From NCBI RefSeq assembly GCF_000689415.1, contig NZ_HG322950.1, positions 1,978,769-2,002,768 on the forward strand: a stretch of 24,000 nt of DNA, read 5' to 3'. Source of the DNA: Pseudomonas knackmussii B13. Lineage in GTDB: Bacteria > Pseudomonadota > Gammaproteobacteria > Pseudomonadales > Pseudomonadaceae. Every line of letters begins with the position of its first letter. The first letter of the stretch is position 1. Position numbers and translations under genes: made by a program. The notes under the pieces were generated by a model. The model did not search any database and had not been told where the DNA came from. It saw nothing but the letters and a program-made list of their open reading frames with translations. This document shows positions 7,862 through 21,827 of this stretch, piece by piece.

Positions 7862-10573
7862 GTGGACGTCGTGTTCAAAACCGCAGCCGGCAGCCTTTCG
7901 CGTCATCAGTCTTCGCTCCCCCAGGTGCCTGCCGATCATCTGTACCTTCCCCAGGTCCAGTCCGCACTGGATCGTTCCAAGCATTTCCGAGTCCTGCTGT
8001 TCTCTGCGCCTGCCGGTTTCGGCAAGAGTGCCGCTTTGGCGTCGCTTGCAGCTCAGCGTGAGGAACGCGGCCACCACGTGGTGTGGATTTCCCTCGAGAG
8101 TGCCGACGACGACCCGGTGCGCTTCTGCACCCGGCTGACCGAGTCGCTCGCCGCCGCCTTGCCCGGCGTCGGCGCCGATGCCCAGAGCTACCTGCAGAAC
8201 ACCCTGCGTGTGCCGGTCGTCGCAGTCATGGAAAGCCTGCTGATGGACCTGGCGCGTTGCGAGCAGCCGGTCCTGCTGGTGCTGGATGACTTCGATCGCA
8301 TTGGCCACGAAGAAATCCTCGGTGGCCTCAACCGCCTGGTGCAGTACGCCCCGCCAGCCTTCACCCTGGCCATCGGCAGCCGTTCGCTGCCGCCGCTCAG
8401 CCTGGCCACCTGGCGCGCCAAGGGTCTGTTGCTGGAAGTCGGCCTCGAAGAGCTGCGCCTGAGCGAAGAACAGACCCGCGACTACTTCCGCCGCAGCGGT
8501 CTTGAACTGGCCGACGAATGCCTGCGCGCGCTGTACACGCAGACCGAGGGTTGGGTGATCGGGGTACACCTGGTGAGCCTGTGGCTGCGTCAGCAACCCA
8601 GCGGCACGCCCCTGAACCTCGAGGCCCTGCGCGGTGACCAGGCGGCGGTCGGTGGTTATCTACTGCGCGCGGTCTTCGAGCGCCTACCCGACGACATCCG
8701 TAGCATCCTGCTGTCTCTGAGCGTGGCCAGTCGCCTGAACGGCGACCTGGCCAATGCCCTGACTGGTCGCCAGGACGGCCAGGCCCTGCTGGAGCGCCTG
8801 GACAGCCTGCAACTCTTCCTCCTGCCGCTGGACCGCGAGCGCCAGTGGTACCGCTTCCACCAGCTGTTCGCCGACTTCCTCCGCGCGCACCTGCGCGATC
8901 GCGAGCCGGAACGCTTCAAGCAGCTGCACTTCAACGCGAGCCTGTGGTTTACCAACCACCACATGCCGACCCTGGCGATCGAACACGCCTGCCTGGCCGA
9001 AGACCCGGAAATGCTAGCCGCGCTGGTCGATGGCTACGGTCTGGAGCTGATCAACCGCGGCCAGCTGTACCTGATCTCGCGCTGGCGCCGGCACGTGCCG
9101 GACGAGATCGCCGCGCGCTATCCGATCCTGGTGCTCAGCGATGTCTGGACCCGCGCCACCGAGCTCAGCCTCGCCGAAGCCAATCGCATGCTCGACGAGC
9201 TGCTGGCGCGCTGGAGCGACGGCAAGCCGCAGTCGCCCATGGGCGACCAATACCTGTCGGCGCTGGCGGTGAAGGCCGTGCTGGCGCTGCAGAAGGACGA
9301 TCTCGAACAGTGCATCGCCCTGGCGCGCCGGGTGGAGAGCCAGCTGGGGCAGAACTCGGCGTTCCTCGAGTGCGCCATCCTGCTGGTCGCCGCCTTCGCC
9401 CAGGTCATGCATGGCCAGGCCGAGCAGGCGCGGCGCCTGATGGGGCTGGCGCAGCAGCGCAATCATTTCCTCGACGGCCGCTACCTGCACATGCAGCTGT
9501 CCACCATCGAGGTGATGCTGGCGCTGGAGCAAGGCCACGTGAAGCAGGCGCAGCTGCTGGTCGATCGCGTCCGCGAGCAGGCGGTGCCGCTGTTCGACCG
9601 GCGCTCCCAGGCCCTGGCCCTGCCGGCGATCACCGAGAGCCTGACGGCCTACTACCGCATGGAGCTCGATGGCCTGGAGGCCCGCCTGCGTTGGGCGTTG
9701 GGGCGGGTCGACGTGATCAACCCCATCGATCTGTACGCCCAGGGCGTGCAGTGCCTGGCGCGCATCCAGCGCCTGCAGGGGCGCAGCAAGGAGGCCCTGG
9801 CGACCCTCGGCCTGATGCAGGCGCTGGCGTCGCGCAACCACTCCTGGCGCATCTTCGCCATGGCGGTGGGGGAGGAGATCAACCTGATTCTCCAGGAGCC
9901 GGCCGCCGACCGCTGCAAGCGCGCCGAGCAGCGCCTCAACGGCATCGATTGGCAGAAGCTCGCTGCTTCGTATCGCCAGGGCCCGTTCAACCCGGTGCTC
10001 TGGGTACGCGGCATCAGCCGGGTGCGCCTGCTGCAGGCGCGCGGCCATTTCAGCGAAGCGCTGCACGAGATCACCCAACTGCGCGCGCTGCTGCAACCCG
10101 GCTGGCACGGTCTGCAGCGCCTGCGCCTGGACCTGCTGGCGGCGCTCAGCTACCAGCGCCTGGGCTACCAGGAGCGCGCCAACAGTCTGCTCGGTCAATG
10201 CCTGATCGGCGCCGAGCGCGAAGGGGTGCGTAGCCTCTTCATCGAGGAGGGCGAGGGCATCCGCCTGCTCCTCCAGCAACTCGAGTCCACCGAACGCCAG
10301 CCGGCGCTGCAGGTCTTCATCCGCGGCCTGTTGTCCGCCTGGCCAGGACAGGAAATACGCAAGGCACAGGACGTGCTCGAGGAAGGGCTGACCGACCGCG
10401 AGCGGGAAGTGGTGTGTCTGGCTGCCCAGGGACTCTCCAACGAGGAGATCGGCCAGAAGCTGTCGCTGGCCCTGGGAACCGTCAAATGGCACCTGCACAA
10501 CATCTACGAGAAGCTCAAGGTGCGTAATCGGACCCAAGCGATCCGCCGTGCCCGCGAGCTGAGCCTGCTCTGA
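7862..10573 (+). CDS. MalT-like LuxR-family transcriptional regulator (N-terminal STAND P-loop NTPase, helical/TPR-like sensor region, C-terminal LuxR/FixJ HTH), copy 1
   Basis: Walker A LLFSAPAGFGKSAAL; Walker B VLLVLDDFDRI; TEGWVIGVHL and WYRFHQLFADFL motifs; C-terminal LTDREREVVCLAAQGLSNEEIGQKLSLALGTVKWHLHNIYEKLKVRNRTQA. GTG start at 7862, with CAGGGA 8 nt upstream. Confidence 0.9.
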   Translation: MDVVFKTAAGSLSRHQSSLPQVPADHLYLPQVQSALDRSKHFRVLLFSAPAGFGKSAALASLAAQREERGHHVVWISLESADDDPVRFCTRLTESLAAALPGVGADAQSYLQNTLRVPVVAVMESLLMDLARCEQPVLLVLDDFDRIGHEEILGGLNRLVQYAPPAFTLAIGSRSLPPLSLATWRAKGLLLEVGLEELRLSEEQTRDYFRRSGLELADECLRALYTQTEGWVIGVHLVSLWLRQQPSGTPLNLEALRGDQAAVGGYLLRAVFERLPDDIRSILLSLSVASRLNGDLANALTGRQDGQALLERLDSLQLFLLPLDRERQWYRFHQLFADFLRAHLRDREPERFKQLHFNASLWFTNHHMPTLAIEHACLAEDPEMLAALVDGYGLELINRGQLYLISRWRRHVPDEIAARYPILVLSDVWTRATELSLAEANRMLDELLARWSDGKPQSPMGDQYLSALAVKAVLALQKDDLEQCIALARRVESQLGQNSAFLECAILLVAAFAQVMHGQAEQARRLMGLAQQRNHFLDGRYLHMQLSTIEVMLALEQGHVKQAQLLVDRVREQAVPLFDRRSQALALPAITESLTAYYRMELDGLEARLRWALGRVDVINPIDLYAQGVQCLARIQRLQGRSKEALATLGLMQALASRNHSWRIFAMAVGEEINLILQEPAADRCKRAEQRLNGIDWQKLAASYRQGPFNPVLWVRGISRVRLLQARGHFSEALHEITQLRALLQPGWHGLQRLRLDLLAALSYQRLGYQERANSLLGQCLIGAEREGVRSLFIEEGEGIRLLLQQLESTERQPALQVFIRGLLSAWPGQEIRKAQDVLEEGLTDREREVVCLAAQGLSNEEIGQKLSLALGTVKWHLHNIYEKLKVRNRTQAIRRARELSLL

Positions 10574-10574
10574 C

Positions 10575-13292
10575 ATGAACATGATGAATTCTCAGCAGCC
10601 CACGCCGCTGCTGCGCACCAAGCTGTTCCCGCCGCACGCGGATGGCGTGGCGCTGTTGCCGCGCCAGGCCTTGATCGACCGCCTGTACGGTGCGCGCAAC
10701 CAGCGCGCGCTGATCCTCAGCGCGCCGGCAGGGTTCGGCAAGAGCACGATCCTCAGCCTGTTTCGCCGGCGCCTGCAGGAGAGCGGGGCGCTGGTAGCCT
10801 GGCTGTCCTGCGACGAAGGCGACAGCGAGCCGCAGCGCTTCCTGCAATATCTGGTGGCGAGCATCCGCAGCGTCGCCGAGGGCTTCGGCGCCAACACCTC
10901 GAACCTGCTGCAGTCGGACATGACGCTGCCGCTGGAGGGGCTGCTCGATGCCTTCCTCGCCGACCTCAAGCGCATCGATGGCCAGCTCTATCTGTTCCTC
11001 GACGACTTCCACCGCATCCGCCATCCGGCGCTCACGCCCGGCGCGCGCTATCTGATCGAGCACCTGCCGGACAACGTCCGCCTGGTTACCAGCACGCGCT
11101 ACCGGCCACGCTTCCTGGTCGACGAACCGGCGCTGTCGCCCTGGGCCTTCTGCCTGAGCGGCGCGGATCTGCGCCTGACCCGCGAAGAAGCCGACACCTA
11201 TCTGCTGGAGCTCAAGGGGCTGTCTCTGGCCGAGTCCGAGCTGGCGCTGCTCTACAAGCGCACCGAAGGCTGGATCACCGCGCTGCACCTGGCCGCCCTG
11301 GCGCTGGCCCGGCACAGCGACCGCGCCGCCTTTCTGCGCGGGCTGTCCGGTACCGAACGGGACATAGCCGACTACCTCGCCGAAGACGTGCTCGCCTCGC
11401 TGCCGGCGCCGCTGCAGCAATTCCTCGACCAGACCTCCGTGCTCGACGAGTTCTGCGCCGAGCTGTGCAACGCCCTGACCGGGCGGCGCGACGGCATGGA
11501 CATGCTCATGCGCCTGCAGAACGAGCAATTGTTCATCATCCCGCTGGACGACCAGCGCGAGTGGTTCCGTTACCACCACCTGTTCGCCGAGTTCCTCCAC
11601 GGGCGCTTGGCGCGCAGCGCCGATCCCACGCCGTTGCTCAATGCCGCGGCGCGCTGGTGCGAGAGCCGCGACATGGCCGATCGCGCGGTGCGCTATGCGC
11701 TGCGTGCGCGTGACTACGCTTTTGCCGCCGACTTGCTGGAGCGCCAGGGCGCGCGGCTGATCGCCGGCAACCGGGTGTACAGCATCCTCGGCATGCTCGG
11801 CAGCATTCCCGCCGAGGTGATCCGCGAGCACCCGGTGTTCCAGATCTTCTATGCCTGGCAGTTGGCCTTCGAGCAGAAGTTCGCCGAGGCCGAGGCCCTC
11901 ATCGAGGAGCTCAGCGCACGGCTGCTGCTGGGGCAGGGCAAGGCGCGCAACTTCGGTCTGGCCGAGTTGCTGGCGGTGGCCCAGGTACTCAAGGCGCTGG
12001 TGCTGCTCTACCAGGACAAGCTGGAGGCGAGCCTCAAGGTCTCGCGCCAGTGGCTGTCGCTGGTGCCTGCGAACCAGCCGGTGTTCCGCGCGAGCCTGGC
12101 GTGCATCCTCGCCGCTGCTCATGCACTGCTGGGCGACTATGCCGAAGCGGCCGGTGCCATCGGCATCGCCCGCGAATGCCTGCGCATGGCGGACAGCGAG
12201 TACCTGCAGGTGGTGGCGAGCATGATCGAGGCGCTGATCTGCAAGGAGAGCGGCGAACTGGAGCGCGGGCGGACCATCGCCGAAAGCGCGCGCAGCCGGG
12301 TCGAGCGGGTGTTCGGCCGGCGCAGTAGGGTAGGTGGGCCGTTGTCGCTGGCCTACGCCGATATCCTCTACGAGCAGGATCGCCACGCCGCGATCCTCGC
12401 CGAACTGCCGCTCGCCACGACCTGGCGCGACGTGGCGACGCCGGTCGAGCTGATCAGCCGCGGCCAGTTGGTGATGGCCAAGGCGCGTTTCTTTGCCGGC
12501 GAGGCCGACCAGGGTCTGGCCCAACTCGACGAATGGCTGGCCGGGCTGCAATCGCCGGGTTACGAGCGGGTCAATGCGCTGGCCATGAGTTGCAAGGTGC
12601 AGCTGTTGCTTTGGCTGCGTCGACCCAACGAGGCCGAGCGCGTTTGCCTTCAACTGGCGCGACAGCTCTCGGGGCTTTCCGCGGAGCGCTTCGCTGACGC
12701 CCACGCCGCGCTGTGCCTGGCCGAGGCGCGCCTGGCGTTGTCCGAGCGGCATGCCGAGAAAGCGCAACAGCGCCTGGAAGCCTGCCTGGCGGCGACGACT
12801 TCGCCCTATCTGCGCGACCGGCGCTTGCGTCTTTCCTTGTTACTTTCTGTTGCGTATTGGCAGAAAGGTAACAGCGAAAAAGCCTTCGCACTCTTCGCGC
12901 CGACTCTCGAAGAGGCCTGGAACCAGGGCTATCGCCGCCTGTTCCAGGACGACGCGCTCTGGCTGCTGCCGTTCTGGGAGGCCTGGCGCGAAGCCGAGCC
13001 CAAGCGCGCCGCCGCCTGGCAAGGGGTGGCCGAGATGCTCCGCGAGCAGTGCCGCCGGCTCTCCGTCGACCCGGAAGGTTTCGAGGAAAATCAGGATGTT
13101 AGCCACCGCGAGCGGGAGATCCTGCGGCTGGTCGCGGCGGGCCTTTCCAATCGCGATATCGCCCAGGCGGTACATCTGTCGGAGGCCACCATCAAGTGGC
13201 ACCTGCACAACCTGTTCGCCAAGTTGGGAGTGCGCAGTCGTACCCAGGCAGTTCTCAAGGGGAAGAGCCTCGGCTTGCTGAGCGAGGCGTGA
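10575..13292 (+). CDS. MalT-like LuxR-family transcriptional regulator, copy 2 (paralogue of the upstream gene)
   Basis: Walker A LILSAPAGFGKSTIL; Walker B LYLFLDDFHRI; TEGWITALHL; WFRYHHLFAEFL; C-terminal VSHREREILRLVAAGLSNRDIAQAVHLSEATIKWHLHNLFAKLGVRSRTQA. The ATG lies 1 nt after the stop of copy 1 (TGA-C-ATG). Confidence 0.9.
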   Translation: MNMMNSQQPTPLLRTKLFPPHADGVALLPRQALIDRLYGARNQRALILSAPAGFGKSTILSLFRRRLQESGALVAWLSCDEGDSEPQRFLQYLVASIRSVAEGFGANTSNLLQSDMTLPLEGLLDAFLADLKRIDGQLYLFLDDFHRIRHPALTPGARYLIEHLPDNVRLVTSTRYRPRFLVDEPALSPWAFCLSGADLRLTREEADTYLLELKGLSLAESELALLYKRTEGWITALHLAALALARHSDRAAFLRGLSGTERDIADYLAEDVLASLPAPLQQFLDQTSVLDEFCAELCNALTGRRDGMDMLMRLQNEQLFIIPLDDQREWFRYHHLFAEFLHGRLARSADPTPLLNAAARWCESRDMADRAVRYALRARDYAFAADLLERQGARLIAGNRVYSILGMLGSIPAEVIREHPVFQIFYAWQLAFEQKFAEAEALIEELSARLLLGQGKARNFGLAELLAVAQVLKALVLLYQDKLEASLKVSRQWLSLVPANQPVFRASLACILAAAHALLGDYAEAAGAIGIARECLRMADSEYLQVVASMIEALICKESGELERGRTIAESARSRVERVFGRRSRVGGPLSLAYADILYEQDRHAAILAELPLATTWRDVATPVELISRGQLVMAKARFFAGEADQGLAQLDEWLAGLQSPGYERVNALAMSCKVQLLLWLRRPNEAERVCLQLARQLSGLSAERFADAHAALCLAEARLALSERHAEKAQQRLEACLAATTSPYLRDRRLRLSLLLSVAYWQKGNSEKAFALFAPTLEEAWNQGYRRLFQDDALWLLPFWEAWREAEPKRAAAWQGVAEMLREQCRRLSVDPEGFEENQDVSHREREILRLVAAGLSNRDIAQAVHLSEATIKWHLHNLFAKLGVRSRTQAVLKGKSLGLLSEA

Positions 13293-13520: not shown

Positions 13521-13961
13521 ATGAAAAAAATCCAACAACTGGTTCTTGCAAGTGCTGTTCTGGCCGCTCCGTTCATGGCTCATGCCGACCTGAAATCCAT
13601 GGATGACACCGCGCTGTCCAGCGTGACCGGTCAGGACGGCATCAGCATCGCCGGTACCTTCAACGCCTCTATCGGCGCCGTGACCTACACCGACGCCGAC
13701 ACCAACGGCGGCTCCCTGGTGCTGCAGGGCATCCATCTGCCGAGCGTAACCATCGCCGACAGCGCCCCGATGACCGTAGACGTGGTTACCACCACCATCG
13801 GCAGCACCCCGACCCAGCAGCTGGCTATCGGCCTGCCGACCGTTACCGGCGACGTGACCATCGACGCCATCAAGGTTGGCAGCACTGGCGCCAGCATCGG
13901 CTCGCTGACCGTCTCCAACCTGAACCTGGCCGGTTCCACCGTGAAGATCTGGGGTCACTGA
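13521..13961 (+). CDS. small exported beta-rich protein of unknown function (candidate secreted/fibre subunit)
   Basis: GGAGAG lies 8 nt upstream of the ATG. The Sec signal is MKKIQQLVLASAVLAAPFMAHA|DL. The mature part is Cys-free, rich in T/V/G/S/I/D, and has alternating polar/apolar runs (VTIADSAPMTVDVVTTTIGS, SLTVSNLNLAGSTVKIWGH). The ORF-track start at 13440 is upstream of the RBS and signal peptide and is rejected. Confidence 0.75.
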   Translation: MKKIQQLVLASAVLAAPFMAHADLKSMDDTALSSVTGQDGISIAGTFNASIGAVTYTDADTNGGSLVLQGIHLPSVTIADSAPMTVDVVTTTIGSTPTQQLAIGLPTVTGDVTIDAIKVGSTGASIGSLTVSNLNLAGSTVKIWGH

Positions 13962-13986
13962 TCACGGTGTTCGCGTAGTACCCGAT

Positions 13987-14009
13987 CTCGCCGGCGCCTC
14001 GCCGGCGAG
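13987..14009 (+). other. intra-operon GC-rich stem-loop directly after the small-subunit gene (possible attenuator or mRNA stabiliser)
   Basis: CTCGCCGGCG (13987-13996), loop CCT, CGCCGGCGAG (14000-14009): a perfect 10-bp stem with no following T-tract, located 26 nt after the stop codon. Confidence 0.5.
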
Positions 14010-14038
14010 GTCCATCCAGAATTCAAGGAGTGGGATGG

Positions 14039-14800
14039 ATGTTCGAGATTCTGCTGGGGAGCCTGCTGGGGCTGTTCGGTTTCACCCAGGCGGTGGACAC
14101 CAAGCCGCAACCGCAAGGCACGGTCAATCTCTCGCAGCAACTCACTCCCAACGGCCCCTTGCGTGAGTCGGTGCAGCTCGAGCCGATGAGCCAGGTGCAG
14201 TTCCGCAACGTCATTCGCCAGTCGTACGACTACAGCTGCGGCTCGGCGGCCCTGACCACGCTGCTGGACTACTACCTGGGGCGCAACCTGGAAGAGCGCC
14301 AGGTCATGGAAGGCCTTCTGAAGTACGGCGAGGCGGACAAGATCGTCCAGCGTCGCGGTTTCTCGCTGCTCGACATGAAGCGCTACGCCGCTGCACTGGG
14401 CTACAAGAGCGGCGGTTTCCGTGCCGAATTCTCCGACCTCGACTCGCTGGAAAACCCGGCGCTCGTGCCCATCCACTACGGCGGCTTCAAGCATTTCGTG
14501 GTGGTGCGTGACGTCTACAACGATCACGTTTTCGTTGCCGATCCTGCCCTGGGCAACATCAGTTTCACCCGCAGCCGCTTCGAGGCGATCTGGGACCAGA
14601 ACGTCCTGTTCGTGATCTACCCCGGCGGCCAGGAGCCGAAGAGCGCCCTGGCCCTGAAAGAACAGGACCTGCGCCTGGTGGATGACCGTACCGTGAGCCT
14701 GCTGGCCTTCCGCGATTTTCCGGAGCTGAGCAAGTTCGCCAGCAACCGCGTGACGGAGGCCGCCTCGAAAGGCGACGTGCAGTACATCCGCAACAAGTGA
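14039..14800 (+). CDS. standalone periplasmic C39-family cysteine peptidase (bacteriocin-processing-type papain fold)
   Basis: AAGGAG (14025-14030) lies 8 nt before ATG 14039. The signal-like N-terminus is MFEILLGSLLGLFGFTQA|VD. The catalytic set is present: VIRQSYDYSCGSAALTTLLDYYLG (Gln and Cys; Cys codon 14237-14239) and KHFVVVRDVYNDHVFVADPALG (His/Asp). Confidence 0.85.
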   Translation: MFEILLGSLLGLFGFTQAVDTKPQPQGTVNLSQQLTPNGPLRESVQLEPMSQVQFRNVIRQSYDYSCGSAALTTLLDYYLGRNLEERQVMEGLLKYGEADKIVQRRGFSLLDMKRYAAALGYKSGGFRAEFSDLDSLENPALVPIHYGGFKHFVVVRDVYNDHVFVADPALGNISFTRSRFEAIWDQNVLFVIYPGGQEPKSALALKEQDLRLVDDRTVSLLAFRDFPELSKFASNRVTEAASKGDVQYIRNK

Positions 14801-14846
14801 GCGCTCTTTTCATCGACCCATAAGAACAAGACCAGGGGATAGCATC

Positions 14847-15851
14847 ATGGATTTCAGGGGGTATGCGTGCGCCGCCATACTGGCCTTGCTGGCTGGCGGC
14901 CCTGTGTGGGCCGAGGAGAAATCGGTCGACCAGGCGCGTGATGCACTGTCCAAGAAAGAGGGTGACGCCGACAGCGCCAAGGCGCTGGAGCAGGTGTTCC
15001 AGGCGGCGGAACAAAGCTACACCTTGCTGAAGAAGGGCGAGCGCACGCTCACCTATGGCTTCGACTACTCGATGATGCGCGACACCCGCATCCAGCAGGT
15101 GCGCACTGGCCAGAACGTCTACAGCGTCCTGGCGCAGAGCGAGGCGCAGCACACCTTCACCAACTCGTTCACCTTCGACTACGGCATCTGGGACAACCTG
15201 ACCTTCAGCCTGCGCCTGCCGTTCGTGGCCAAGTACGACACCGAGCGCGACGTGCATGCCTACAGCCTCGGCGACATCTCCACGACGTTGCGCTGGCAGC
15301 CCTGGCCATCGGTACGCGGACGTCCCGTCACCACCTTCTACGCCACCCTCGGCCTCCCCACCGGCGACAGCCCGTACGACATGAATCCGGACAAGGACGT
15401 GTCTACCGGCAGCGGCTACTACAGCCTGGGCGTGGGCGCCAACATGTCCTACGTGATCGACCCGGTCGTGCTCTACGGCTCGCTCGGTTACACCTACAAC
15501 ATGCAGGTCGACAGCATCCATCAGTACCAATACAACGAGGAGCTGCAGAAGGTCACTCCGGGCGACACCCTGAACTTCGCCATGGGCATGGCCTACGCGC
15601 TGTCCTATGACGTATCGCTGGCCACCTCGTACCAGATGGCCTACCAGATGAAGAGCCACTACCACTTCGACGACCGCACGGTGGAGGCTCCGGAACAGAC
15701 CAGCGCAATCATGAACTTCTCGCTCGGCCTGCGAACTTCACCCGACTACATCGTCAACGTGAACGCCGGCTTCGGCATGACCGAGGACTCGCCGGATGTC
15801 CTGCTGGGGGTTTCCCTGCCCCTGGACATCAAGGGCCTGAAACCCGACTAA
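14847..15851 (+). CDS. outer-membrane beta-barrel protein with an N-terminal helical segment (resembles the 'MetA-pathway/transporter' barrel family)
   Basis: Signal MDFRGYACAAILALLAGGPVWA|EE, then a charged helical stretch (KSVDQARDALSKKEGDADSAKALEQVFQAAEQSY). After that come amphipathic Y/G-rich beta-strands (TLTYGFDYS, YSLGDISTTLRW, YGSLGYTYNM, LNFAMGMAYALSYDVSLATSYQMAYQM, VNVNAGFGMT). There is no terminal Phe, so the family assignment is tentative. Confidence 0.6.
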   Translation: MDFRGYACAAILALLAGGPVWAEEKSVDQARDALSKKEGDADSAKALEQVFQAAEQSYTLLKKGERTLTYGFDYSMMRDTRIQQVRTGQNVYSVLAQSEAQHTFTNSFTFDYGIWDNLTFSLRLPFVAKYDTERDVHAYSLGDISTTLRWQPWPSVRGRPVTTFYATLGLPTGDSPYDMNPDKDVSTGSGYYSLGVGANMSYVIDPVVLYGSLGYTYNMQVDSIHQYQYNEELQKVTPGDTLNFAMGMAYALSYDVSLATSYQMAYQMKSHYHFDDRTVEAPEQTSAIMNFSLGLRTSPDYIVNVNAGFGMTEDSPDVLLGVSLPLDIKGLKPD

Positions 15852-15869
15852 CCCGCGAGCGAGACCCAC

Positions 15870-17468
15870 ATGACGAAGCGCATTTCGCCACTCGTGCTGG
15901 CGATGGCTGGGGCGGGGCTTGGCTGGATTCTGCCGGCGCACGCACAACTGGCCAACGACATCACCATCGGCAACCCCAAGGCGATGGCCCTGGGCAACGC
16001 GGTGACTGCCGATTCGACCGGCATCGACGCCGTGCACTACAACCCGGCCGCACTGACCAAACTCAAGGGCCGGCAGACCACGGTGAAGCTGGTGGCCGGC
16101 TTCATGGATATCCGCGCCGGCTTCCATGCGCCGCCAGATTATGGCTCGAGCACCTTCGGCGTGACCGACGACCCGATCGCCAACTCGCACAGCCGCACCA
16201 CCACGCCGACCATGTACCTGCCAGGCCTCGGCGGCATGACCGACGTGCCGGCGCTGGTAGCGCCGCTGGCCGGCATCTCGATCAACCCGCCGGGCTCGAA
16301 ATTCACCTTCGCCACCAACGTCTACACCCCGCAGGCGCTGGGCTATTCGCGCGATTCCGACAGCGATCCGGCACGCTACGATGGCCGTCGTGTATCGCTG
16401 CAGCGGCTGACCTACTTCTCGCCCTCGGTGGGCTACCAGATGAACGACGCCTGGTCGTTCGGCCTGTCGATCGGCTTCTCGCACCAGGCCATGGCGCTGG
16501 ATACCGACTTCCGCAACCCGGGCATCCTCACCGGCCTGCTGGAAACCCTGCACAACACCACCTGCGTGCCGGGGGCGCAGGAAATCGTCGAGCTGGTGTT
16601 CAACGTCTGCGGCGGCAAGATCGGCCCTTACGACAAGCTGGCCAACCTCAAGCTGGACATGCAGCAGACCCTCTCGCCGAGCTACAACCTCGGCGTGCTC
16701 TGGGAGCCCAACGACTGGTTCGGCTGGGGTGCGGTGTACCAGAGCGAGTCGCGCATGAAGCTCAAGGGCAAGTACCGCGTCGACTACACCCAGGACTGGC
16801 AGGGCTTCTGGTCCGGCCTGCAGAGCTCGGTGTTCGGTGCCTTCCTCAGTCCGCTGTTCCCCAACGGCAACGTCGACGAAGAGCACGGCGTAGCCACGCT
16901 GAAGCTGACCAACCCGGACAACTTCTCCACCGGCATCAAGATTCGTCCGTTCGACAACTGGCAGTTCAACGCCGACCTCAAGTGGAGCGGCTACAGCGAC
17001 TGGAACAACATGACCATCGAGTTCGACAAGGAACTCGACCTGCTGCGCATCGCCAAGAACTTTGCGCCCAACGGCGCCACCGACCACAGCATCATTCTCG
17101 ACCGCGGCTACCGCGACACCTGGAGCTACGCCGCCGGCGTACAGTACGACGTGAACGACCGCCTGCAGCTGCGCGCCGGCTACGAGTACCGCCCCTCGGC
17201 GATCCCCAAGAGCAAGGCCGACGCCCTGGTGCCCATCGGCGACGCCAACCTCTACGGCCTCGGCCTGGGCTATCGCTGGGACAAGGACACCACCATCGAC
17301 CTGGGCTTCAACTACTTCGTTTCCAAGCAGAGCATCAAGGCCGGCGAGAGCTGCAACCTGACCTGCACCGGGATCGACAACCTGGTGTACAACCCCTATG
17401 CCGGCATGGATGTGGACACGACGGTGAAGGCCTATATTTTCGCACTGACCTACAACACCACCTTCTGA
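15870..17468 (+). CDS. FadL/OmpP1/TodX-family outer-membrane channel (hydrophobic-compound transporter fold)
   Basis: Signal MTKRISPLVLAMAGAGLGWILPAHA|QL. The hatch-domain signature is GNPKAMALGNAVTADSTGIDAVHYNPAALTKL. The body is long and beta-rich, and the C-terminus is the OMP-type ...YIFALTYNTTF. Confidence 0.85.
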   Translation: MTKRISPLVLAMAGAGLGWILPAHAQLANDITIGNPKAMALGNAVTADSTGIDAVHYNPAALTKLKGRQTTVKLVAGFMDIRAGFHAPPDYGSSTFGVTDDPIANSHSRTTTPTMYLPGLGGMTDVPALVAPLAGISINPPGSKFTFATNVYTPQALGYSRDSDSDPARYDGRRVSLQRLTYFSPSVGYQMNDAWSFGLSIGFSHQAMALDTDFRNPGILTGLLETLHNTTCVPGAQEIVELVFNVCGGKIGPYDKLANLKLDMQQTLSPSYNLGVLWEPNDWFGWGAVYQSESRMKLKGKYRVDYTQDWQGFWSGLQSSVFGAFLSPLFPNGNVDEEHGVATLKLTNPDNFSTGIKIRPFDNWQFNADLKWSGYSDWNNMTIEFDKELDLLRIAKNFAPNGATDHSIILDRGYRDTWSYAAGVQYDVNDRLQLRAGYEYRPSAIPKSKADALVPIGDANLYGLGLGYRWDKDTTIDLGFNYFVSKQSIKAGESCNLTCTGIDNLVYNPYAGMDVDTTVKAYIFALTYNTTF

Positions 17469-17478
17469 GGACGGACAG

Positions 17479-18648
17479 ATGCGTCGCTGCACTCCACTGG
17501 GCATTGTTCTCCTCGGCGTGGCCTTGCTGTCCGCGGGTGCGCAGGCGGGCGCCGGACGCTATCTGTCGTGGATCGACGACAGCGGGCAGGTGCACAACAC
17601 CTTCGTCGACGACGACTTCAATCGCCAACAGCGCCAGGCGGCCAAGCGCATCGACCAAAGCGACCAGGCGCGCCTGCTCGACGACGGCGGCACGCGCTGG
17701 CCGGGGAGCCAGGCGGCGGGGGAGAGCAAGCGGCGTTACTTCACCTGGGTGGACGGCCAGGGCAACCTGCAGAACAGCTTCTACGCGGCCAACCAGGCGC
17801 CTGCCGGTGGCGCCGACTACGTGCTGCCCAATGGCGATCGCTCGTCCGAGTACATCGATGCCGAGGCGTACGAAGACAAGGGCTTCGTTCGCAGCCAGAA
17901 CGGCAATCCGTACTACACCTGGGTCGACGAGCAGGGGCGCATGCACAACTCGCCGATCAGCCCCGAGGAGCGCGCAGCGGGCATTCGCCGCAACGACATC
18001 GCCTTCACCGAAGGTCGGCAGGTCGAGTTCGGCAAGCGTCCGCAGGCATTGCCTGGGCTCGACGGCAGCGGCGAGCAGACCGACGCCATGAAGGCGCTGC
18101 TCAAGGGCAGCGGCAAGACCCTGAACGACCTCTACCAGGACCTGCAGCGGCGCTGCTGCGAGCAGATCGGCGAGGGCGATTTCACCGAACTGAGTGCCGA
18201 TGAGCCGCGCTACGAGGAGCTCAACAAGTTCTCGCCGAGCTTCGATTTCCCGATGGGCAAGAGCTACTACGTGGCCATGAAGCTGCCGGCATCGCAGCAG
18301 GTCTATGGCCTGCGCGTGCGTAGCTTCGCCAACCATCAGGTGGTCTATCCGTCGCTGCTGTTCCTCGACGAACACAAGCGCCCGACCCGCCTGGTCAGCG
18401 ACGCGGTGTACAAGCTCAATCCGGAGACCTGGTACCGCTACGCCTTCATCGAAGGCACGGTGCCGGTGCGCGCCAACGAAGGTGAACGCTACGTACTGCT
18501 GCTGACCACGGACGAGGACCGCAGTCTGCAGACCCTCGACAACAAACCGTACAAGCGGCCGCTGGAAAAACTGGCGGTGAACGATGCCGGCATGAAGGTG
18601 CGCGACCACGGCGACCAGGGCGGTTTCGAGCTGGCGGTGATTCGCTGA
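17479..18648 (+). CDS. exported periplasmic protein: three DUF4124-like Y-x-W-(I/V)-D-x-x-G repeats plus a C-terminal MalM-like domain
   Basis: GAGGA lies 7 nt upstream. Signal MRRCTPLGIVLLGVALLSAGAQA|GA. The repeats are RYLSWIDDSGQVHNTF, RYFTWVDGQGNLQNSF and PYYTWVDEQGRMHNSP. The C-terminal ...FDFPMGKSYYVAMKLPA...VVYPSLLFLDEHKRP...YVLLLTTDED... resembles the maltose-operon periplasmic protein MalM, from memory. Confidence 0.65.
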   Translation: MRRCTPLGIVLLGVALLSAGAQAGAGRYLSWIDDSGQVHNTFVDDDFNRQQRQAAKRIDQSDQARLLDDGGTRWPGSQAAGESKRRYFTWVDGQGNLQNSFYAANQAPAGGADYVLPNGDRSSEYIDAEAYEDKGFVRSQNGNPYYTWVDEQGRMHNSPISPEERAAGIRRNDIAFTEGRQVEFGKRPQALPGLDGSGEQTDAMKALLKGSGKTLNDLYQDLQRRCCEQIGEGDFTELSADEPRYEELNKFSPSFDFPMGKSYYVAMKLPASQQVYGLRVRSFANHQVVYPSLLFLDEHKRPTRLVSDAVYKLNPETWYRYAFIEGTVPVRANEGERYVLLLTTDEDRSLQTLDNKPYKRPLEKLAVNDAGMKVRDHGDQGGFELAVIR

Positions 18649-18663
18649 GGTTGGGCGGGGGAA

Positions 18664-18750
18664 TCCCTGTAGGAGCGGACCTTGTCCGCGATTCGCGCGC
18701 ATGGCGCGCTCCTACAGGTTTTTCGCGGATGAGATCCGCTCCTACGGGCG
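18664..18750. repeat. REP-like palindromic element cluster at the convergent gene junction; the first pair doubles as a terminator hairpin for the + strand operon
   Basis: CCTGTAGGAGCG (18666-18677) pairs with CGCTCCTACAGG (18707-18718) and is followed by TTTTT (18719-23). A third partial copy, TCCGCTCCTAC, sits at 18736-18746. The GTAGGAGCG core is the familiar Pseudomonas REP motif (recalled). Nested small hairpins are GCGGA/TCCGC and GCGCGC/GCGCGC. Confidence 0.6.
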
Positions 18751-18761
18751 GGGCGGCGCCG

Positions 18762-19748
18762 TCAGATCTCCCGCTGCGGCACGTGCCCGAACAGGCTCTG
18801 GGCGAACTTCACGCGCTGCTCCGGCGTTTCCTCAATACCCTTGGCGCGCAGGCTTTCCAGATGCGCCTCCACTGCCTGAGTTCGGCCGACCAGGCCGCAG
18901 TCGTTGGCGATCTGGATGTTCAGGCCGGGGCGTGCGTTGAGCTCGAGGATCAGCGGGCCCTTGTCCTGGTCCAGCACCATGTCCACGCCGATGTAGCCAA
19001 GGCCGCAGAGCTCGTAGCAGCCCGCGGCGAGCTTCATGAAGCCGTCCCAGAACGGCAGCTGCACGCCGTCCACCGCGTTGGCGGTGTCCGGGTGCTTGGC
19101 GATCTTGCGGTTCAGCCAGGTGCCGCGCAGTGTGCTGCCGGTGGCGAGGTCCACACCCACGCCGATGGCGCCCTGGTGCAAGTTGGCCTTGCCGTTGGAC
19201 TGGCGGGTCGGCAGGCGCAGCATGGCCATCACCGGGTAGCCCATGAGGACGATGATGCGGATGTCCGGCACGCCCTCGTAGCTGATGCTCTTGAAGATCG
19301 GGTCGGGGGTGACGCGGTACTCGATCAGTGCGCGGTCACGGTGCCCGCCGAGGGAGTAGAGGCCGGTGAGGATGCTGGACAGCTGGTACTCGATCTCGTC
19401 GCGGCTGATGATCCGCCCGGAGACCGTCTTGTAGTTGCCCTCGAAGCGGTCGGCGATCACCAGGATGCCATCGCCGCCGGCGCCCTGCGCAGGCTTGATC
19501 ACGAAGTCGTTGCGCTCGCCGATGATGCTGTCGAGCTTCTCGATTTCCTTCTCGGTGGAGATGATCCCGTACATCTCCGGCACCTGGATGCCGGCCTCGA
19601 TGGCGCGCTCCTTGGTGATGATCTTGTCGTCGACGATCGGGTACAGATGGCGCTTGTTGTACTTCAGCACGAAGTCCGCGTTGCGCCGGTTGATCCCCAT
19701 GATGCCCTTGGCTTCCAGGGCTTTCCATCGCTTGATCAGGCCGAACAT
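18762..19748 (-). CDS. RimK-related ATP-grasp enzyme (alpha-L-glutamate ligase-like protein)
   Basis: 328 aa: MFGLIKRWKALEAKGIMGINRRNADFVLKYNKRHLYPIVDDKIITKERAIEAGIQVPE...FVIKPAQGAGGDGILVI...GYIGVDMVLDQDKGPLILELNARPGLNIQ. This is the ATP-grasp pattern of the rimK-related glutamate-ligase subgroup. Confidence 0.88.
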   Translation of the reverse strand: MFGLIKRWKALEAKGIMGINRRNADFVLKYNKRHLYPIVDDKIITKERAIEAGIQVPEMYGIISTEKEIEKLDSIIGERNDFVIKPAQGAGGDGILVIADRFEGNYKTVSGRIISRDEIEYQLSSILTGLYSLGGHRDRALIEYRVTPDPIFKSISYEGVPDIRIIVLMGYPVMAMLRLPTRQSNGKANLHQGAIGVGVDLATGSTLRGTWLNRKIAKHPDTANAVDGVQLPFWDGFMKLAAGCYELCGLGYIGVDMVLDQDKGPLILELNARPGLNIQIANDCGLVGRTQAVEAHLESLRAKGIEETPEQRVKFAQSLFGHVPQREI

Positions 19749-19751
19749 GGC

Positions 19752-21278: not shown

Positions 21279-21284
21279 GGGGCG

Positions 21285-21827
21285 TTACTCGGCAGTTTTC
21301 TTCGCAAGGGGACAGCCGGGCTGGCCGGCGGCGTATTTCAGGCTGGGATCGACCAGCGCACCGAAGCGCTTGAGCGCGTCGGAGCCGATCAGCAGCGGGT
21401 ATTGGAAGGCGCTGCGATCGGTCAAGTTCACTTCGATGGTGCGGCGCACCTTGCCCAGGCAGACCTCCAGTTCGATGACCGGGCGTGCGGTGTAGGCCTT
21501 GTCTTCGTCGGGGTCGAAATCGCCGTGGCGGCGCTTGATCTTGCTGATGCGTGCCAGCGGCCGTTCGATCGGCTCGCGGTCGGCGCTGTCGGTGGCCAGG
21601 TAGAAGCGCACCCAGGTTTCGCCATCGCGCTTGAAGCGCTTGATGTCGCGGGCGCTGAGCGATGCGGTCTTGGCGCCGGTGTCGAGCTTGGCGGCGAGCA
21701 CTTCGTCGAGTTCGCCGATGTGCGCGTATTCGTTGAGGCCGTAGACGGTCTTACCCGCGGCCTGGGCGGTGACGCCGAGGGCGGGGAGCAGGAACAGCAG
21801 CAGAAGGGTGGTGAGTCTGAGTTGCAT
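21285..21827 (-). CDS. exported retropepsin-like aspartic protease (family usually mislabelled 'ATP-dependent zinc protease', RimB-like)
   Basis: Signal MQLRLTTLLLLFLLPALGVTAQA|AG. It has AKLDTGAKTASL (DTGA, nt 21672-21683) and the retropepsin hydrophobic-Gly-x-Asp motif YPLLIGSDALKRF. The stop lies 6 nt before the 7TM gene start. Confidence 0.8.
   Translation of the reverse strand: MQLRLTTLLLLFLLPALGVTAQAAGKTVYGLNEYAHIGELDEVLAAKLDTGAKTASLSARDIKRFKRDGETWVRFYLATDSADREPIERPLARISKIKRRHGDFDPDEDKAYTARPVIELEVCLGKVRRTIEVNLTDRSAFQYPLLIGSDALKRFGALVDPSLKYAAGQPGCPLAKKTAE

What the first reader, a model, noticed from the sequence alone, without database searches (positions are those of the whole stretch)
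13521..14800. Sec signal peptide followed by a double-glycine-leader-like segment, encoded next to a periplasmic C39 peptidase
After the predicted signal-peptidase site (AHA|DL), the small protein continues DLKSMDDTALSSVTGQ|DG (nt 13587-13634). Counting back from Q38 as -1, the hydrophobic residues fall at -4 (V), -7 (L), -12 (M) and -15 (L), with Gly at -2. That is exactly the spacing of the conserved hydrophobic positions in double-glycine leaders recognised by C39 peptidase domains (established for bacteriocin and competence-peptide leaders). Position -1 is Gln rather than Gly/Ala/Ser.

Canonical C39 domains sit on the cytoplasmic side of ABC exporters. Here the C39 enzyme has its own signal peptide and there is no ABC transporter. 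The inference is two-step maturation in the periplasm: Sec cleavage first, then C39 cleavage.

A true GG (N62-G63-G64|S65) also exists further in, but it lacks the upstream hydrophobic register.
Basis: partly seen in the sequence, partly recalled or inferred. Interest (0 to 1): 0.72.

Follow-up and report, generated by a model that had tools for sequence, protein, structure and literature searches.

The report
Pilus subunit with C39-type propeptide
A small secreted Pseudomonas protein is the subunit of a little-studied "Fil" pilus. Behind its ordinary export signal it carries a 16-residue bacteriocin-style leader that is probably cut off after Gly-Gln by the C39 peptidase encoded next to it, which would give periplasmic C39 peptidases a first substrate class.

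Summary
Residues 23-38 (DLKSMDDTALSSVTGQ, nt 13587-13634) follow a canonical Sec signal. They have hydrophobic residues at -15/-12/-7/-4 and Gly at -2.

This is the hallmark of the whole family (Pfam DUF6160; 291 clusters at 50% identity). G-Q is present in at least 90% of diverse members, and an A-x-A signal-peptidase site lies just upstream.

The predicted cut is backed by an experimental structure. The cryo-EM model of a natural pilus (PDB 9XFV), a DUF6160 homologue, starts exactly at the residue after G-Q and runs to the family's C-terminal His.

A C39 peptidase (FilB-like, Fap FapD-like) lies downstream in 47 of 70 assessable loci. That includes the operons closest to the 9XFV subunit, where four different Sec+leader proteins (P1 = Q, Q, H/R, A; P2 always G) precede the peptidase.

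The window encodes a Fil-type system: FilA-like subunit, FilB, a FapF-like channel FilC, a FadL-like FilD and a MalM-like protein.

Not shown:
- that FilB is the enzyme that cuts;
- why 18 of 18 Marinobacter paralogues have no linked FilB;
- whether FilB's N-terminus is an atypical signal peptide or a membrane anchor.

Periplasmic C39 enzymes were already known (FapD). The leader and the Gly-Gln site appear undescribed.

The parts
7862..10573 (+). MalT/LuxR-type regulator 1 (AAA + TPR + GerE HTH)
   Evidence: NCBIfam MalT E = 4.6e-101. It lies upstream of the cluster on the same strand.
10575..13292 (+). MalT/LuxR-type regulator 2, directly upstream of the subunit gene
   Evidence: Pfam GerE, TPR_MalT and AAA_16. 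Its orthologue sits about 3 kb upstream of the DUF6160 gene in every Pseudomonas locus examined.
13521..13961 (+). FilA-like pilus subunit precursor (146 aa, DUF6160)
   Evidence: Pfam PF19657 E = 7.8e-24, above cutoff. NCBIfam FilA N-terminus E = 2.5e-15. Profile hit to pilus 9XFV E = 3.6e-33. AF2 model with a beta core from about residue 41 to 143.
13521..13586 (+). Sec signal peptide, residues 1-22 (MKKIQQLVLASAVLAAPFMAHA)
   Evidence: n/h/c regions and A-H-A are read from the sequence. A/S at -19 and -17 relative to the G-Q cut in 117 and 112 of 141 family representatives.
13587..13634 (+). Leader-like propeptide, residues 23-38 (DLKSMDDTALSSVTGQ); proposed cut after Q38
   Evidence: Register and conservation. 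AF2 predicts a short helix at 29-36 with low pLDDT, detached from the core. 9XFV starts at the equivalent of D39.
13635..13958 (+). Mature subunit, residues 39-146 (DGISIAG ... VKIWGH), including the conserved C-terminal motif S-I-G-S-L-x-V-x-N-L-N-L-x-G-S-x-V-K-I-W-G-H
   Evidence: Aligns with the whole of 9XFV chain A. The C-terminal motif is conserved in nearly all full-length family members.
13987..14009 (+). Perfect 10-bp G+C-rich hairpin between the subunit and peptidase genes; a second stem covers the peptidase ribosome-binding site
   Evidence: RNA fold of 13955-14040: -38 kcal/mol, z = -3.0. There is no U tract, so it is not a canonical terminator.
14039..14800 (+). FilB-like C39 cysteine peptidase (253 aa). 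Q61 at nt 14219-14221, Cys67 at 14237-14239, His152 at 14492-14494, Asp168 at 14540-14542. N-terminal hydrophobic segment at residues 1-18
   Evidence: Pfam Peptidase_C39 E = 7.6e-21. NCBIfam FilB E = 7.5e-87 and FapD E = 1.2e-34. PDB LahT150 6MPZ and PCAT1 4RY2, with Q, C, H and D aligned. Family alignment.
14847..15851 (+). FilC-like outer-membrane channel related to FapF
   Evidence: NCBIfam FilC E = 6.5e-95 and FapF E = 7.2e-19. Pfam Phenol_MetA_deg.
15870..17468 (+). FilD-like OmpP1/FadL/TodX-family outer-membrane protein
   Evidence: Pfam Toluene_X E = 4.4e-111. NCBIfam FilD E = 6.6e-152.
17479..18648 (+). Periplasmic MalM-like protein (DUF4124 + MalM domain); last gene of the cluster
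   Evidence: Pfam MalM E = 8.5e-29. Syntenic in Pseudomonas loci.

Best explanation
The gene at 13521-13961 encodes the major subunit precursor of a Fil-type pilus of the DUF6160 family. It matures in two steps outside the cytoplasm.

Step 1 (inferred from sequence): Sec export, with signal peptidase I cutting after A-H-A22.

Step 2 (site supported by a homologous structure; enzyme inferred): the 16-residue amphipathic leader D23-Q38 has the hydrophobic register of double-glycine leaders. It docks on the C39 peptidase FilB (14039-14800), which is tethered to or released at the periplasmic face of the inner membrane. The leader is cut off after Gly37-Gln38.

The new N-terminus is D-G-I-S-I. P2' Gly is nearly invariant and is followed by a beta strand. 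The processed subunit then leaves through the FapF-like outer-membrane channel FilC and polymerises into a helical pilus like 9XFV.

The leader probably keeps the subunit from assembling, and marks it for this pathway, until it is cut. FapD is required for Fap export in the same way. FilD (FadL-like) and the MalM-like protein are accessory components of unknown role. Two MalT-type regulators control the operon.
For: Family hallmark:
- The leader is conserved across the family, with an A-x-A site just before it.
- It is the best match in the protein to a double-glycine-leader matrix.

Structure:
- AF2 places the leader as a separate, low-confidence helix before a confident beta core.
- Foldseek and profile searches identify PDB 9XFV as a homologue. 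It is a natural pilus with 25 chains.
- Its model starts exactly after G-Q and ends at the C-terminal His (PMC12956863).

The peptidase:
- FilB has an intact Q/C/H/D catalytic set aligned with LahT150 and PCAT1.
- It is related to FapD. FapD is periplasmic, and its catalytic Cys is required for Fap secretion (PMC5557850).

Gene linkage:
- 47 of 70 assessable DUF6160 loci have FilB downstream on the same strand.
- Operons L125 and L128, closest to 9XFV, carry four different Sec+leader proteins. Gly is invariant at P2 and P1 is Q, Q, H/R, A. All lie upstream of C39 and a FilC-like gene.
- L003 and L105 have three tandem leader-bearing genes before FilB.

Precedent: Fil fimbriae with FilA as subunit exist in Acinetobacter sp. 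Tol 5 (PMC3498257, PMC11784438).
Against: - No experiment links FilB to the cut.
- The 9XFV model was auto-built from density guided by a UniProt homologue. A flexible, uncleaved leader would also be invisible.
- Gln at P1 is outside the known G/A/S specificity of C39 domains.
- 23 of 70 assessable loci lack a nearby FilB: Marinobacter 18/18, plus a Hahellaceae locus, Aquabacterium, Bermanella, Tamilnaduibacter and one unclassified Pseudomonadota genome bin. Whether those genomes have FilB elsewhere could not be determined.
- FilB's N-terminal hydrophobic segment has no basic residue and no conserved cleavage site, so its topology is assumed by analogy with FapD.
- No leader-peptide HMM in NCBIfam matches the segment.
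Confidence: 0.68

Rival explanations
1. The leader is removed after G-Q, but by another periplasmic protease. This could be a housekeeping enzyme or the transglutaminase-like cysteine protease TgpA. FilB would then act on something else, for example the FapF-like channel FilC, as was once proposed for FapD and FapF.
For: - 18 of 18 assessable Marinobacter loci, and several other taxa, have the same leader with no FilB, FilC or FilD within the 8-kb blocks.
- One Marinobacter locus type, and a Hahellaceae locus, conserve the order DUF6160 - small secreted protein - DUF58 - TgpA.
- The target of FapD is still unknown (PMC5557850).
- Gln at P1 does not fit known C39 specificity.
Against: - Wherever FilB is linked, the leader-bearing genes sit directly upstream of it, up to four per operon.
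- The leader's hydrophobic register and Gly at P2 are those that C39 domains read.
- A G-A site occurs in operon mates.
- TgpA-DUF58 clusters are common housekeeping loci, and the linkage was seen in only one paralogue type.
- Scattered substrate genes served by one machinery gene cluster are common.
Confidence: 0.17
2. The segment is not cleaved in this protein. It would be a conserved, flexible N-terminal motif that binds a chaperone or the FilC channel as a targeting signal. It stays attached, and it is simply unseen in the cryo-EM map of the homologue.
For: - The 9XFV model contains only residues that could be built into the density (PMC12956863).
- AF2 gives the segment low confidence.
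- Conservation continues past the proposed site (G at +2, V/I at +3, I at +5), unlike classical leaders, whose cargo is variable.
Against: - The model begins at exactly +1, not a few residues into the core. That is hard to get from a disorder boundary, given that G-Q-x-G is flexible on both sides.
- A catalytically intact peptidase is kept in the operon.
- P1 varies (Q/H/R/A) while P2 Gly is fixed. That is the pattern of a protease site, not of a binding helix alone.
Confidence: 0.1
3. Chance resemblance: an ordinary structural element of DUF6160 that happens to share the spacing of hydrophobic residues with double-glycine leaders.
For: - The score against canonical leaders is modest (7.2 bits against 20-34 for true leaders).
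- Amphipathic helices with i, i+3, i+8 spacing are common.
- No leader HMM matched.
Against: - The same motif is found on proteins that otherwise do not resemble DUF6160 (L125, L128, L078).
- It always lies right after a signal peptide and next to C39 genes.
- It is absent from the solved filament.
Confidence: 0.05

Closest known systems
Double-glycine leader peptides cut by the C39 domain of peptidase-containing ABC transporters (PCAT1, LahT, ComA, LagD, CvaB)
   Same: - Amphipathic leader with hydrophobic residues at -15/-12/-7/-4 and Gly at -2.
- Acidic residues in the leader.
- A papain-like C39 enzyme with the Q/C/H/D catalytic set.
- Closest solved relatives of FilB are 6MPZ and 4RY2.
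   Different: - The leader follows a Sec signal instead of starting the protein.
- P1 is Gln (also H, R or A in operon mates) instead of G/A/S.
- The enzyme is a free-standing 253-aa protein with an N-terminal hydrophobic segment, not the cytoplasmic domain of an ABC exporter.
- The cargo is a 108-residue beta-rich pilin, not a small peptide.
- P2' Gly is conserved.
Fap functional-amyloid secretion system of Pseudomonas (FapD periplasmic C39 peptidase + FapF trimeric outer-membrane channel)
   Same: - FilB hits the FapD model (E = 1.2e-34) and FilC hits the FapF model (E = 7.2e-19).
- Sec-dependent substrates.
- A periplasmic C39 whose catalytic Cys is needed for export (PMC5557850).
   Different: - There are no FapA, FapB, FapC or FapE homologues and no Q/N-rich amyloid repeats.
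- The substrate here is a folded pilin with a defined leader.
- FapD's substrate and cut site remain unknown.
- Scores are far below the NCBIfam cutoffs for FapD and FapF.
- An extra FadL-type protein and a MalM-like protein are present.
Fil fimbriae of Acinetobacter sp. Tol 5 / A. baumannii (filABCDEF; NCBIfam NF050077-NF050080 'putative pilus system')
   Same: - Same gene order: subunit, C39 peptidase, FapF-like protein, FadL-like protein.
- Same leader in Acinetobacter FilA (AMA|MQAMDDASLSETTGQ|DGISIG).
- FilA is a fibre protein detected on cells (PMC3498257, PMC11784438).
   Different: - The Pseudomonas subunit is half the size (146 aa against about 280-370 aa).
- All four proteins score below the NCBIfam cutoffs (FilB 291 against 475 bits, and so on).
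- There are no FilE or FilF matches; a MalM-like gene is present instead.
- Regulation is by MalT-type regulators.
PDB 9XFV 'pilus-like-alpha', natural filament from karst-cave water (PMC12956863)
   Same: - Same family: profile E = 3.6e-33, Foldseek E = 6.6e-5.
- Same N-terminal D-G-[VI]-S-I-A-G and C-terminal ...W-A-H ends.
   Different: - About 21% identity to the window protein.
- It has a roughly 65-residue insertion containing helices.
- The source organism is unknown (Burkholderiales-like homologues).
- The paper used it only as a handedness standard and says nothing about biogenesis.
Type V pili of Bacteroidota (FimA/Mfa1), matured by gingipain cleavage
   Same: Works alike: a cysteine protease outside the cytoplasm removes an N-terminal segment of the pilin, and this licenses polymerisation.
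   Different: The proteins and folds are unrelated. Those pilins are lipoprotein precursors. Cleavage is after Arg by gingipains, and there is no C39 enzyme and no FapF-like channel.

Membership tests
Peptidase family C39 (Pfam PF03412) | Match to the family model above the curated cutoff | tested here: met
   74.8 bits against a cutoff of 22, E = 7.6e-21, residues 60-195 of the GTG-14030 reading.
Peptidase family C39 (Pfam PF03412) | Catalytic Cys and His, with the oxyanion Gln six residues before Cys and the Asp of the D-P motif | tested here: met
   Q61, C67, H152 and D168 (numbering from ATG 14039) are invariant in 19 diverse FilB homologues. They align with LahT150 and PCAT1.
Peptidase family C39 (Pfam PF03412) | N-terminal cytoplasmic domain of an ABC exporter (the classical context) | tested here: not met
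   The protein is free-standing at 253 aa. No ABC transporter is present in the 24-kb window.
Peptidase family C39 (Pfam PF03412) | Proteolytic activity on a leader peptide | not testable with these tools
   Needs an enzyme assay or a mutant.
Double-glycine (GG-type) leader peptide | Hydrophobic residues at -4, -7, -12 and -15 | tested here: met
   V35, L32, M27 and L24. Conserved in 130, 135, 134 and 126 of 141 family representatives. Best window against a canonical-leader matrix.
Double-glycine (GG-type) leader peptide | Gly at -2 | tested here: met
   G37 is at least 90% conserved. It is invariant in the eight leader-bearing proteins of operons L125 and L128.
Double-glycine (GG-type) leader peptide | Gly, Ala or Ser at -1 | tested here: not met
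   Gln38. Gln is found in at least 90% of the family. H, R and A occur in operon mates.
Double-glycine (GG-type) leader peptide | The leader is the extreme N-terminus of a precursor that lacks a Sec signal | tested here: not met
   A 22-residue Sec-type signal precedes it.
Double-glycine (GG-type) leader peptide | Removed from the mature product | tested here: inconclusive
   The homologous pilus model 9XFV starts at +1. This is not this protein, and disorder cannot be excluded.
DUF6160 (Pfam PF19657) | Match above the curated cutoff | tested here: met
   84.2 bits against a cutoff of 27, E = 7.8e-24.
Fil putative pilus system (NCBIfam NF050077-80) | FilA, FilB, FilC and FilD matches above the curated cutoffs | tested here: not met
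   FilA 56.6 against 220, FilB 291 against 475, FilC 319 against 630, FilD 507 against 970 bits. These are homologues, not equivalogs of the Acinetobacter proteins.
Fil putative pilus system (NCBIfam NF050077-80) | Gene order: subunit, C39, FapF-like, FadL-like, on one strand | tested here: met
   Window 13521-17468. Same order in Acinetobacter, Oleispira, Bacterioplanoides and Moraxellaceae loci.
Fap functional-amyloid system | FapD and FapF equivalogs plus the amyloid subunits FapB/FapC and FapA/FapE | tested here: not met
   FapD 119.5 against 330 bits and FapF 67.9 against 700 bits. No other Fap proteins and no repeat-rich subunit in the window.
Sec (signal peptidase I) signal peptide on the subunit | Basic n-region, hydrophobic core, small residues at -3 and -1 | tested here: met
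   MKK / IQQLVLASAVLAAPFM / AHA|D is read from the sequence. A-x-A is conserved in the family. No dedicated predictor was available.
Sec signal peptide on the peptidase FilB | Basic n-region and a conserved cleavage site | tested here: inconclusive
   MFEILLGSLLGLFGFTQA|VD has no basic residue. T-Q-A is not conserved in Acinetobacter or Oleispira homologues. It may be a membrane anchor.

The most novel reading that the evidence does not exclude
DUF6160/Fil pili are a distinct and widespread pilus-assembly pathway of hydrocarbon- and lipid-degrading Proteobacteria. In it a periplasmic C39 peptidase reads a double-glycine-type leader placed behind a Sec signal, cuts after Gly-Gln (a new P1 specificity for the family), and so licenses export through a FapF-like channel and polymerisation. 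The leader would be a portable sorting tag, also carried by minor subunits and by unlinked paralogues. The same logic would explain the unknown role of FapD in Fap amyloid secretion.
Probability: 0.5. Interest if true: 0.8.

Novelty: new variant of a known kind. Interest (0 to 1): 0.68.

Why it matters
- Periplasmic C39 peptidases have been known since FapD (2017), but without an identified substrate or cut site. This family offers a defined leader and a defined bond (Gly-Gln|Asp/Ala-Gly), with a solved filament as the end product. The question becomes directly testable with a peptide assay and one point mutant.
- It would extend C39 specificity beyond G/A/S at P1.
- It would show that a double-glycine-type leader can work in tandem with a Sec signal.
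- It would give a biogenesis route for a pilus class found in Pseudomonas (including P. aeruginosa), Acinetobacter (including A. baumannii Fil), Alcanivorax, Oleispira, Thalassolituus and Marinobacter. Many of these attach to oil or lipid.
- It would give a biological context to PDB 9XFV, which was deposited only as a handedness standard.

Tried and rejected
- Leader-peptide HMMs: NCBIfam scans of the isolated leader at E up to 10 found only FilA and no bacteriocin or NHLP leader models.
- The search for related loci with two DUF6160 alignments failed because no stretch was conserved enough. I used a degenerate DNA pattern instead. It returns 8-kb blocks not centred on the match, so 46 loci were not assessable.
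- Looking for FilB in Marinobacter: a homologue search with the Bacterioplanoides FilB listed only Bacterioplanoides, Thalassolituus and Oleispira in the top 120. This is inconclusive.
- Pseudo-substrate idea: the FilB C-terminal tail (DLRLVDDRTVSLLAF) looks like the leader by eye. A matrix from 140 family leaders scores it weakly (-0.8 to 7 bits, in inconsistent registers), and the best FilB window is the catalytic VADPALGN motif. Rejected.
- The '870-aa' + strand ORF 18651-21263, first taken as a sixth cluster gene (FilF-like), is the antisense of real genes on the - strand.
- Transglutaminase-type cross-linking through the invariant Gln was considered because C39 and transglutaminases share a fold class. 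No evidence for it was found and it was not pursued.
- The paper with the Edman sequence of Tol 5 FilA (Hori et al. 2011) is not held. The 9XFV supplement is not held either.
- Literature searches for a FapD cleavage site found nothing beyond the 2017 paper.
Full report
**1. What is in the sequence**

The ORF at 13521-13961 (+) encodes a 146-residue protein: MKKIQQLVLASAVLAAPFMAHA|DLKSMDDTALSSVTGQ|DGISIAG...VKIWGH.

D23 starts at nt 13587, Q38 ends at nt 13634, N62-G63-G64-S65 is present, and the peptidase Cys codon is TGC at 14237-14239.
- A GGAGAG lies 8 nt before the ATG.
- The first 22 residues have a basic n-region, a hydrophobic core and A-H-A. No signal-peptide predictor was available, so this is read from the sequence.
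- The peptidase ORF was listed from GTG 14030. AAGGAG precedes ATG 14039 by 8 nt, the NCBIfam FilB model aligns from that Met, and all close homologues are 253 aa. The gene is therefore 14039-14800.

**2. Is the leader-like register more than chance?**

This is my own knowledge, not a database. I scored only positions -15 to -2, so that Gln at -1 plays no part.

- The window ending at Q38 is the single best in the protein: 7.2 bits, against -0.7 for the next best.
- 4 of 25,071 windows from six-frame ORFs of this window reach that score. 60 of 5,000 shuffles of the mature region do.
- True leaders score 20-34 bits on their own matrix. This is a real but partial resemblance.
- No leader HMM in NCBIfam matched.

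**3. Conservation**

The protein belongs to Pfam DUF6160 (E = 7.8e-24). An exhaustive search found 291 clusters at 50% identity. The family has two conserved ends and a variable middle of 140 to more than 2,000 aa.

- The N-terminal end, right after the signal peptide, reads A-x-A-[ED]-[LM]-x-x-[LMIV]-D-D-x-x-[LM]-x-x-[VTMI]-[TS]-G-Q-[AD]-G-[VI]-[TS]-I.
- Among 141 representatives, -15 is L/M in 126, -12 is L/M/I/V in 134, -7 is L/M in 135 and -4 is hydrophobic or Thr in 130. A/S occupy -19 and -17, which is the signal-peptidase site.
- That count was anchored on G-[QRK]. An independent MAFFT alignment of 102 diverse members nevertheless gives G37 and Q38 as at least 90% conserved and G40 as invariant.
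- The C-terminal end is ...S-[IL]-G-S-[LV]-x-[IV]-x-[DN]-[LI]-N-[LM]-x-G-[ST]-x-[IVL]-x-[IV]-[WY]-[GA]-H-COOH.

Gln at -1 is a fixed feature of the family, not a drifted Gly.

**4. The cut site: experimental support from a homologue**

An AlphaFold2 model made with 89 homologues (mean pLDDT 74) shows:
- the signal helix;
- a short helix at residues 29-36 with pLDDT around 55;
- a confident beta core from about residue 41 to 143.

Foldseek against the PDB gave one significant hit, 9XFV chain A, 'pilus-like-alpha' (E = 6.6e-5). A profile of the family hits it at E = 3.6e-33.

The deposited 173-residue chain starts DGVSIAGDLNINIGSF..., which is profile position 39, the residue right after G-Q. 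It ends ...GSKFWMWAH, the family C-terminus. BLASTP of that chain against the family aligns residues 1-173 with 12 of 12 best precursors, starting at their first residue after G-Q. An example is ...SASAMTAIEDDALSTVSGQ|DGVSIAGDLNINIGSF.

The source paper (PMC12956863) reconstructed the filament from karst-cave water, auto-built it with EModelX and matched it to UniProt A0A257CJ09. It used the filament only to validate a handedness method and does not discuss the N-terminus.

So a native filament of this family lacks both the signal peptide and the 16-residue leader. Because only residues seen in density were modelled, a disordered uncleaved leader cannot be formally excluded. A disorder boundary falling exactly on the predicted bond would, however, be a coincidence. 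The internal G63-G64 lies within the mature, modelled subunit and is not a processing site.

**5. The enzyme**

- The neighbouring protein is a C39 peptidase (Pfam E = 7.6e-21).
- Q61, C67, H152 and D168 are invariant in 19 diverse homologues. They align with LahT150 (6MPZ) and PCAT1 (4RY2).
- It is closest to Acinetobacter FilB (E = 7.5e-87) and then to FapD (E = 1.2e-34).
- FapD is a periplasmic C39 peptidase. Its catalytic Cys is required for Fap amyloid export, and its substrate is unknown (PMC5557850). A C39 enzyme outside the cytoplasm and without an ABC transporter therefore has a precedent.
- FilB's N-terminal segment (MFEILLGSLLGLFGFTQA) has no basic residue, and the T-Q-A site is not conserved in Acinetobacter or Oleispira homologues. 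It is an atypical signal peptide or a membrane anchor. Periplasmic exposure is assumed by analogy with FapD.

**6. Gene linkage**

A degenerate DNA pattern for DDx6TGQxG[IV][ST]I retrieved 120 genome blocks. I searched them with tblastn using the window's proteins.

- Of 70 loci with enough downstream sequence, 47 have a FilB homologue within 4.5 kb on the same strand, usually followed by FilC and FilD.
- Counts by taxon: Pseudomonas 23/23, Acinetobacter 6/6, plus Alkanindiges, Alcanivorax, Oleispira, Thalassolituus, Bacterioplanoides, Agitococcus and Moraxellaceae.
- The two precursors closest to 9XFV (P0206 at 58% identity, P0204 at 55%) lie in operons with this order: AraC regulator, major subunit, three further proteins, C39 peptidase, FilC-like protein.
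- All four proteins upstream of the peptidase have a Sec signal followed by the leader. Beyond that they are dissimilar.
- In L125 the leaders read ...DDELSAVSGQ|DG...DDELGGVWGQ|AL...DDTELSSVNGH|DG and ...DDDALREVSGA|GV. L128 has the same pattern with G-R in place of G-H.
- P2 Gly is fixed while P1 varies, and one P1 is the classical G-A. That is what a protease site looks like, and it ties the motif to C39 specificity.
- L003 and L105 have three tandem leader-bearing genes before FilB.
- L078 has two extra proteins that share little more than the leader.

**7. What does not fit**

- 23 of 70 assessable loci have no FilB, FilC or FilD nearby. These are 18 of 18 Marinobacter loci (several paralogues per genome, 260-345 aa), a Hahellaceae locus with three identical tandem copies, Aquabacterium, Bermanella, Tamilnaduibacter and one unclassified Pseudomonadota genome bin. 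P0148 stands alone as well.
- One Marinobacter locus type conserves the order small secreted protein - DUF6160 - small secreted protein - DUF58 - TgpA. TgpA is a transglutaminase-like cysteine protease. The order is shared distantly with the Hahellaceae locus.
- I could not establish whether these genomes encode FilB elsewhere.
- This leaves room for another protease. It is equally compatible with scattered substrates served by one distant machinery cluster.

**8. The system in the window**

| Coordinates (+ strand) | Gene product |
|---|---|
| 7862-10573 and 10575-13292 | Two MalT/LuxR regulators |
| 13521-13961 | FilA-like subunit |
| 14039-14800 | FilB, C39 peptidase |
| 14847-15851 | FilC; FapF model E = 7.2e-19 |
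| 15870-17468 | FilD; FadL/TodX family, E = 4.4e-111 |
| 17479-18648 | MalM-like periplasmic protein |

- The long + strand ORF 18651-21263 is spurious. The real genes there are on the - strand: an ATP-grasp protein, a 7TM protein with an inactive transglutaminase domain, and a Zn-protease family protein.
- A perfect 10-bp G+C hairpin (13987-14009) and a second stem over the filB ribosome-binding site separate the subunit gene from the peptidase gene. This fits a high subunit-to-machinery expression ratio, but that reading is only an inference.

**9. Mechanism proposed**

- Shown: the motif and its conservation, the family's two conserved ends, the intact peptidase, the linkage, and a homologous filament lacking the leader.
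- Inferred: signal peptidase I cuts after A22. FilB binds the amphipathic leader helix and cuts after G37-Q38. The processed subunit passes through FilC and polymerises.
- Also inferred: the leader prevents premature assembly or targets the subunit to the pathway.
- Functional analogue: type V pili of Bacteroidota, where gingipain cleavage of an N-terminal segment licenses polymerisation (my own knowledge).

**10. Comparison and novelty**

- The system works like double-glycine leader processing. It fails two defining features of that class: P1 is not G/A/S, and the leader is not at the extreme N-terminus. The enzyme also lacks the ABC context.
- It is a relative of the Fap and Acinetobacter Fil systems but scores below every curated NCBIfam cutoff for them.
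- Fil fimbriae were reported in Acinetobacter sp. Tol 5, with FilA identified by Edman degradation (PMC3498257). That paper is not held, so the mature N-terminus may already be on record there.
- In the held literature, DUF6160 appears once and irrelevantly. No paper describes the leader or the Gly-Gln site.

I rate this as a new variant of a known kind, interest 0.68. My confidence that FilB removes the leader after Q38 is 0.68.

Noticed in passing
AAGGAG lies 8 nt upstream and all close homologues are 253 aa.
   Followed up: yes
window 18651-21827: The 870-aa + strand ORF after the cluster is spurious. The real genes are on the - strand, convergent with the Fil cluster and syntenic in related Pseudomonas. 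They are an ATP-grasp protein (18762-19748), a 7TM protein with an inactive transglutaminase domain (19752-21278) and a PF05618 'Zn_protease' (21285-21827). This is a known but uncharacterised three-gene peptide-modification set.
   Followed up: partly
window 13987-14009 and 14010-14040: A perfect 10-bp G+C-rich hairpin without a U tract lies between the subunit and peptidase genes. A second stem pairs with the peptidase ribosome-binding site (fold -38 kcal/mol, z = -3.0). It may stabilise the mRNA or attenuate expression, setting the subunit-to-machinery ratio.
   Followed up: partly
window 13890-13958: The family has a second invariant feature: a C-terminal motif ending in [WY]-[GA]-His as the very last residues (here K-I-W-G-H). 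It is kept in proteins from 140 to more than 2,000 aa and is present in the 9XFV filament. Its role is unexplained; it could be an export signal for FilC or a polymerisation contact.
   Followed up: partly
L007-L121 (about 49 Marinobacter loci), L059, L067, L078, L094: Marinobacter genomes carry several DUF6160 paralogues with the full leader and C-terminal motif, but no FilB, FilC or FilD within the 8-kb blocks (0 of 18 assessable). A Hahellaceae locus has three identical tandem copies.
   Followed up: partly
L080 426-5330; also L008, L017, L030, L040, L085, L096, L113, L119, L059: One Marinobacter locus type conserves the order small secreted protein - DUF6160 - small secreted protein - DUF58 - TgpA, where TgpA is a periplasmic transglutaminase-like cysteine protease. 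The order is shared at about 33% identity with a Hahellaceae locus. TgpA is a possible alternative processing enzyme, or the linkage may be chance.
   Followed up: partly
window 6354-7697 (-); L128 93-1568; L080 5490-7622: A chorismate-binding enzyme gene (PabB/TrpE-like) lies next to the DUF6160 locus in this Pseudomonas window, in a metagenomic operon closest to 9XFV, and in Marinobacter nauticus. This may be a remnant of ancestral synteny or a functional link.
   Followed up: no
L125 2435-6764; L128 2924-6517: Operons closest to the solved pilus encode four different Sec+leader proteins. Their P1 residues are Q, Q, H or R, and A. They lie before the C39 peptidase and a FilC-like gene and are presumably the major and minor pilins. 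They are regulated by AraC-type rather than MalT-type regulators.
   Followed up: yes
L078 3053-5022: In a Bermanella contig, two proteins downstream of a DUF6160 gene share essentially only the signal peptide and leader (…LTPLNDDTLSAHVGQ…, …LIPLDDAMLQESHGF…). This suggests the leader is a portable tag.
   Followed up: partly
loci L003-L122 (taxonomy of hits): The family is concentrated in bacteria known for growth on hydrocarbons or lipids: Alcanivorax, Oleispira, Thalassolituus, Marinobacter, Alkanindiges, Acinetobacter, and the P. nitroreducens/citronellolis/mendocina groups. The operon includes a FadL/TodX-type protein, and Tol 5 Fil fimbriae were seen on triacylglycerol-grown cells (PMC3498257). 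The pili may serve attachment to hydrophobic substrates.
   Followed up: no
window 14039-14092 and FilB homologues: The FilB N-terminal hydrophobic segment (M-x-E/I-I-L-L-G-S-...) is conserved but has no basic residue in any homologue and no conserved A-x-A site. The C-terminus ends in a conserved basic tail ([YF]-x-[RK]-[RKN]-K). The topology is uncertain.
   Followed up: partly
window 7862-13292: Two tandem paralogous MalT-type (STAND ATPase + TPR + LuxR HTH) regulators of about 900 aa precede the operon. The effector they sense is unknown.
   Followed up: no
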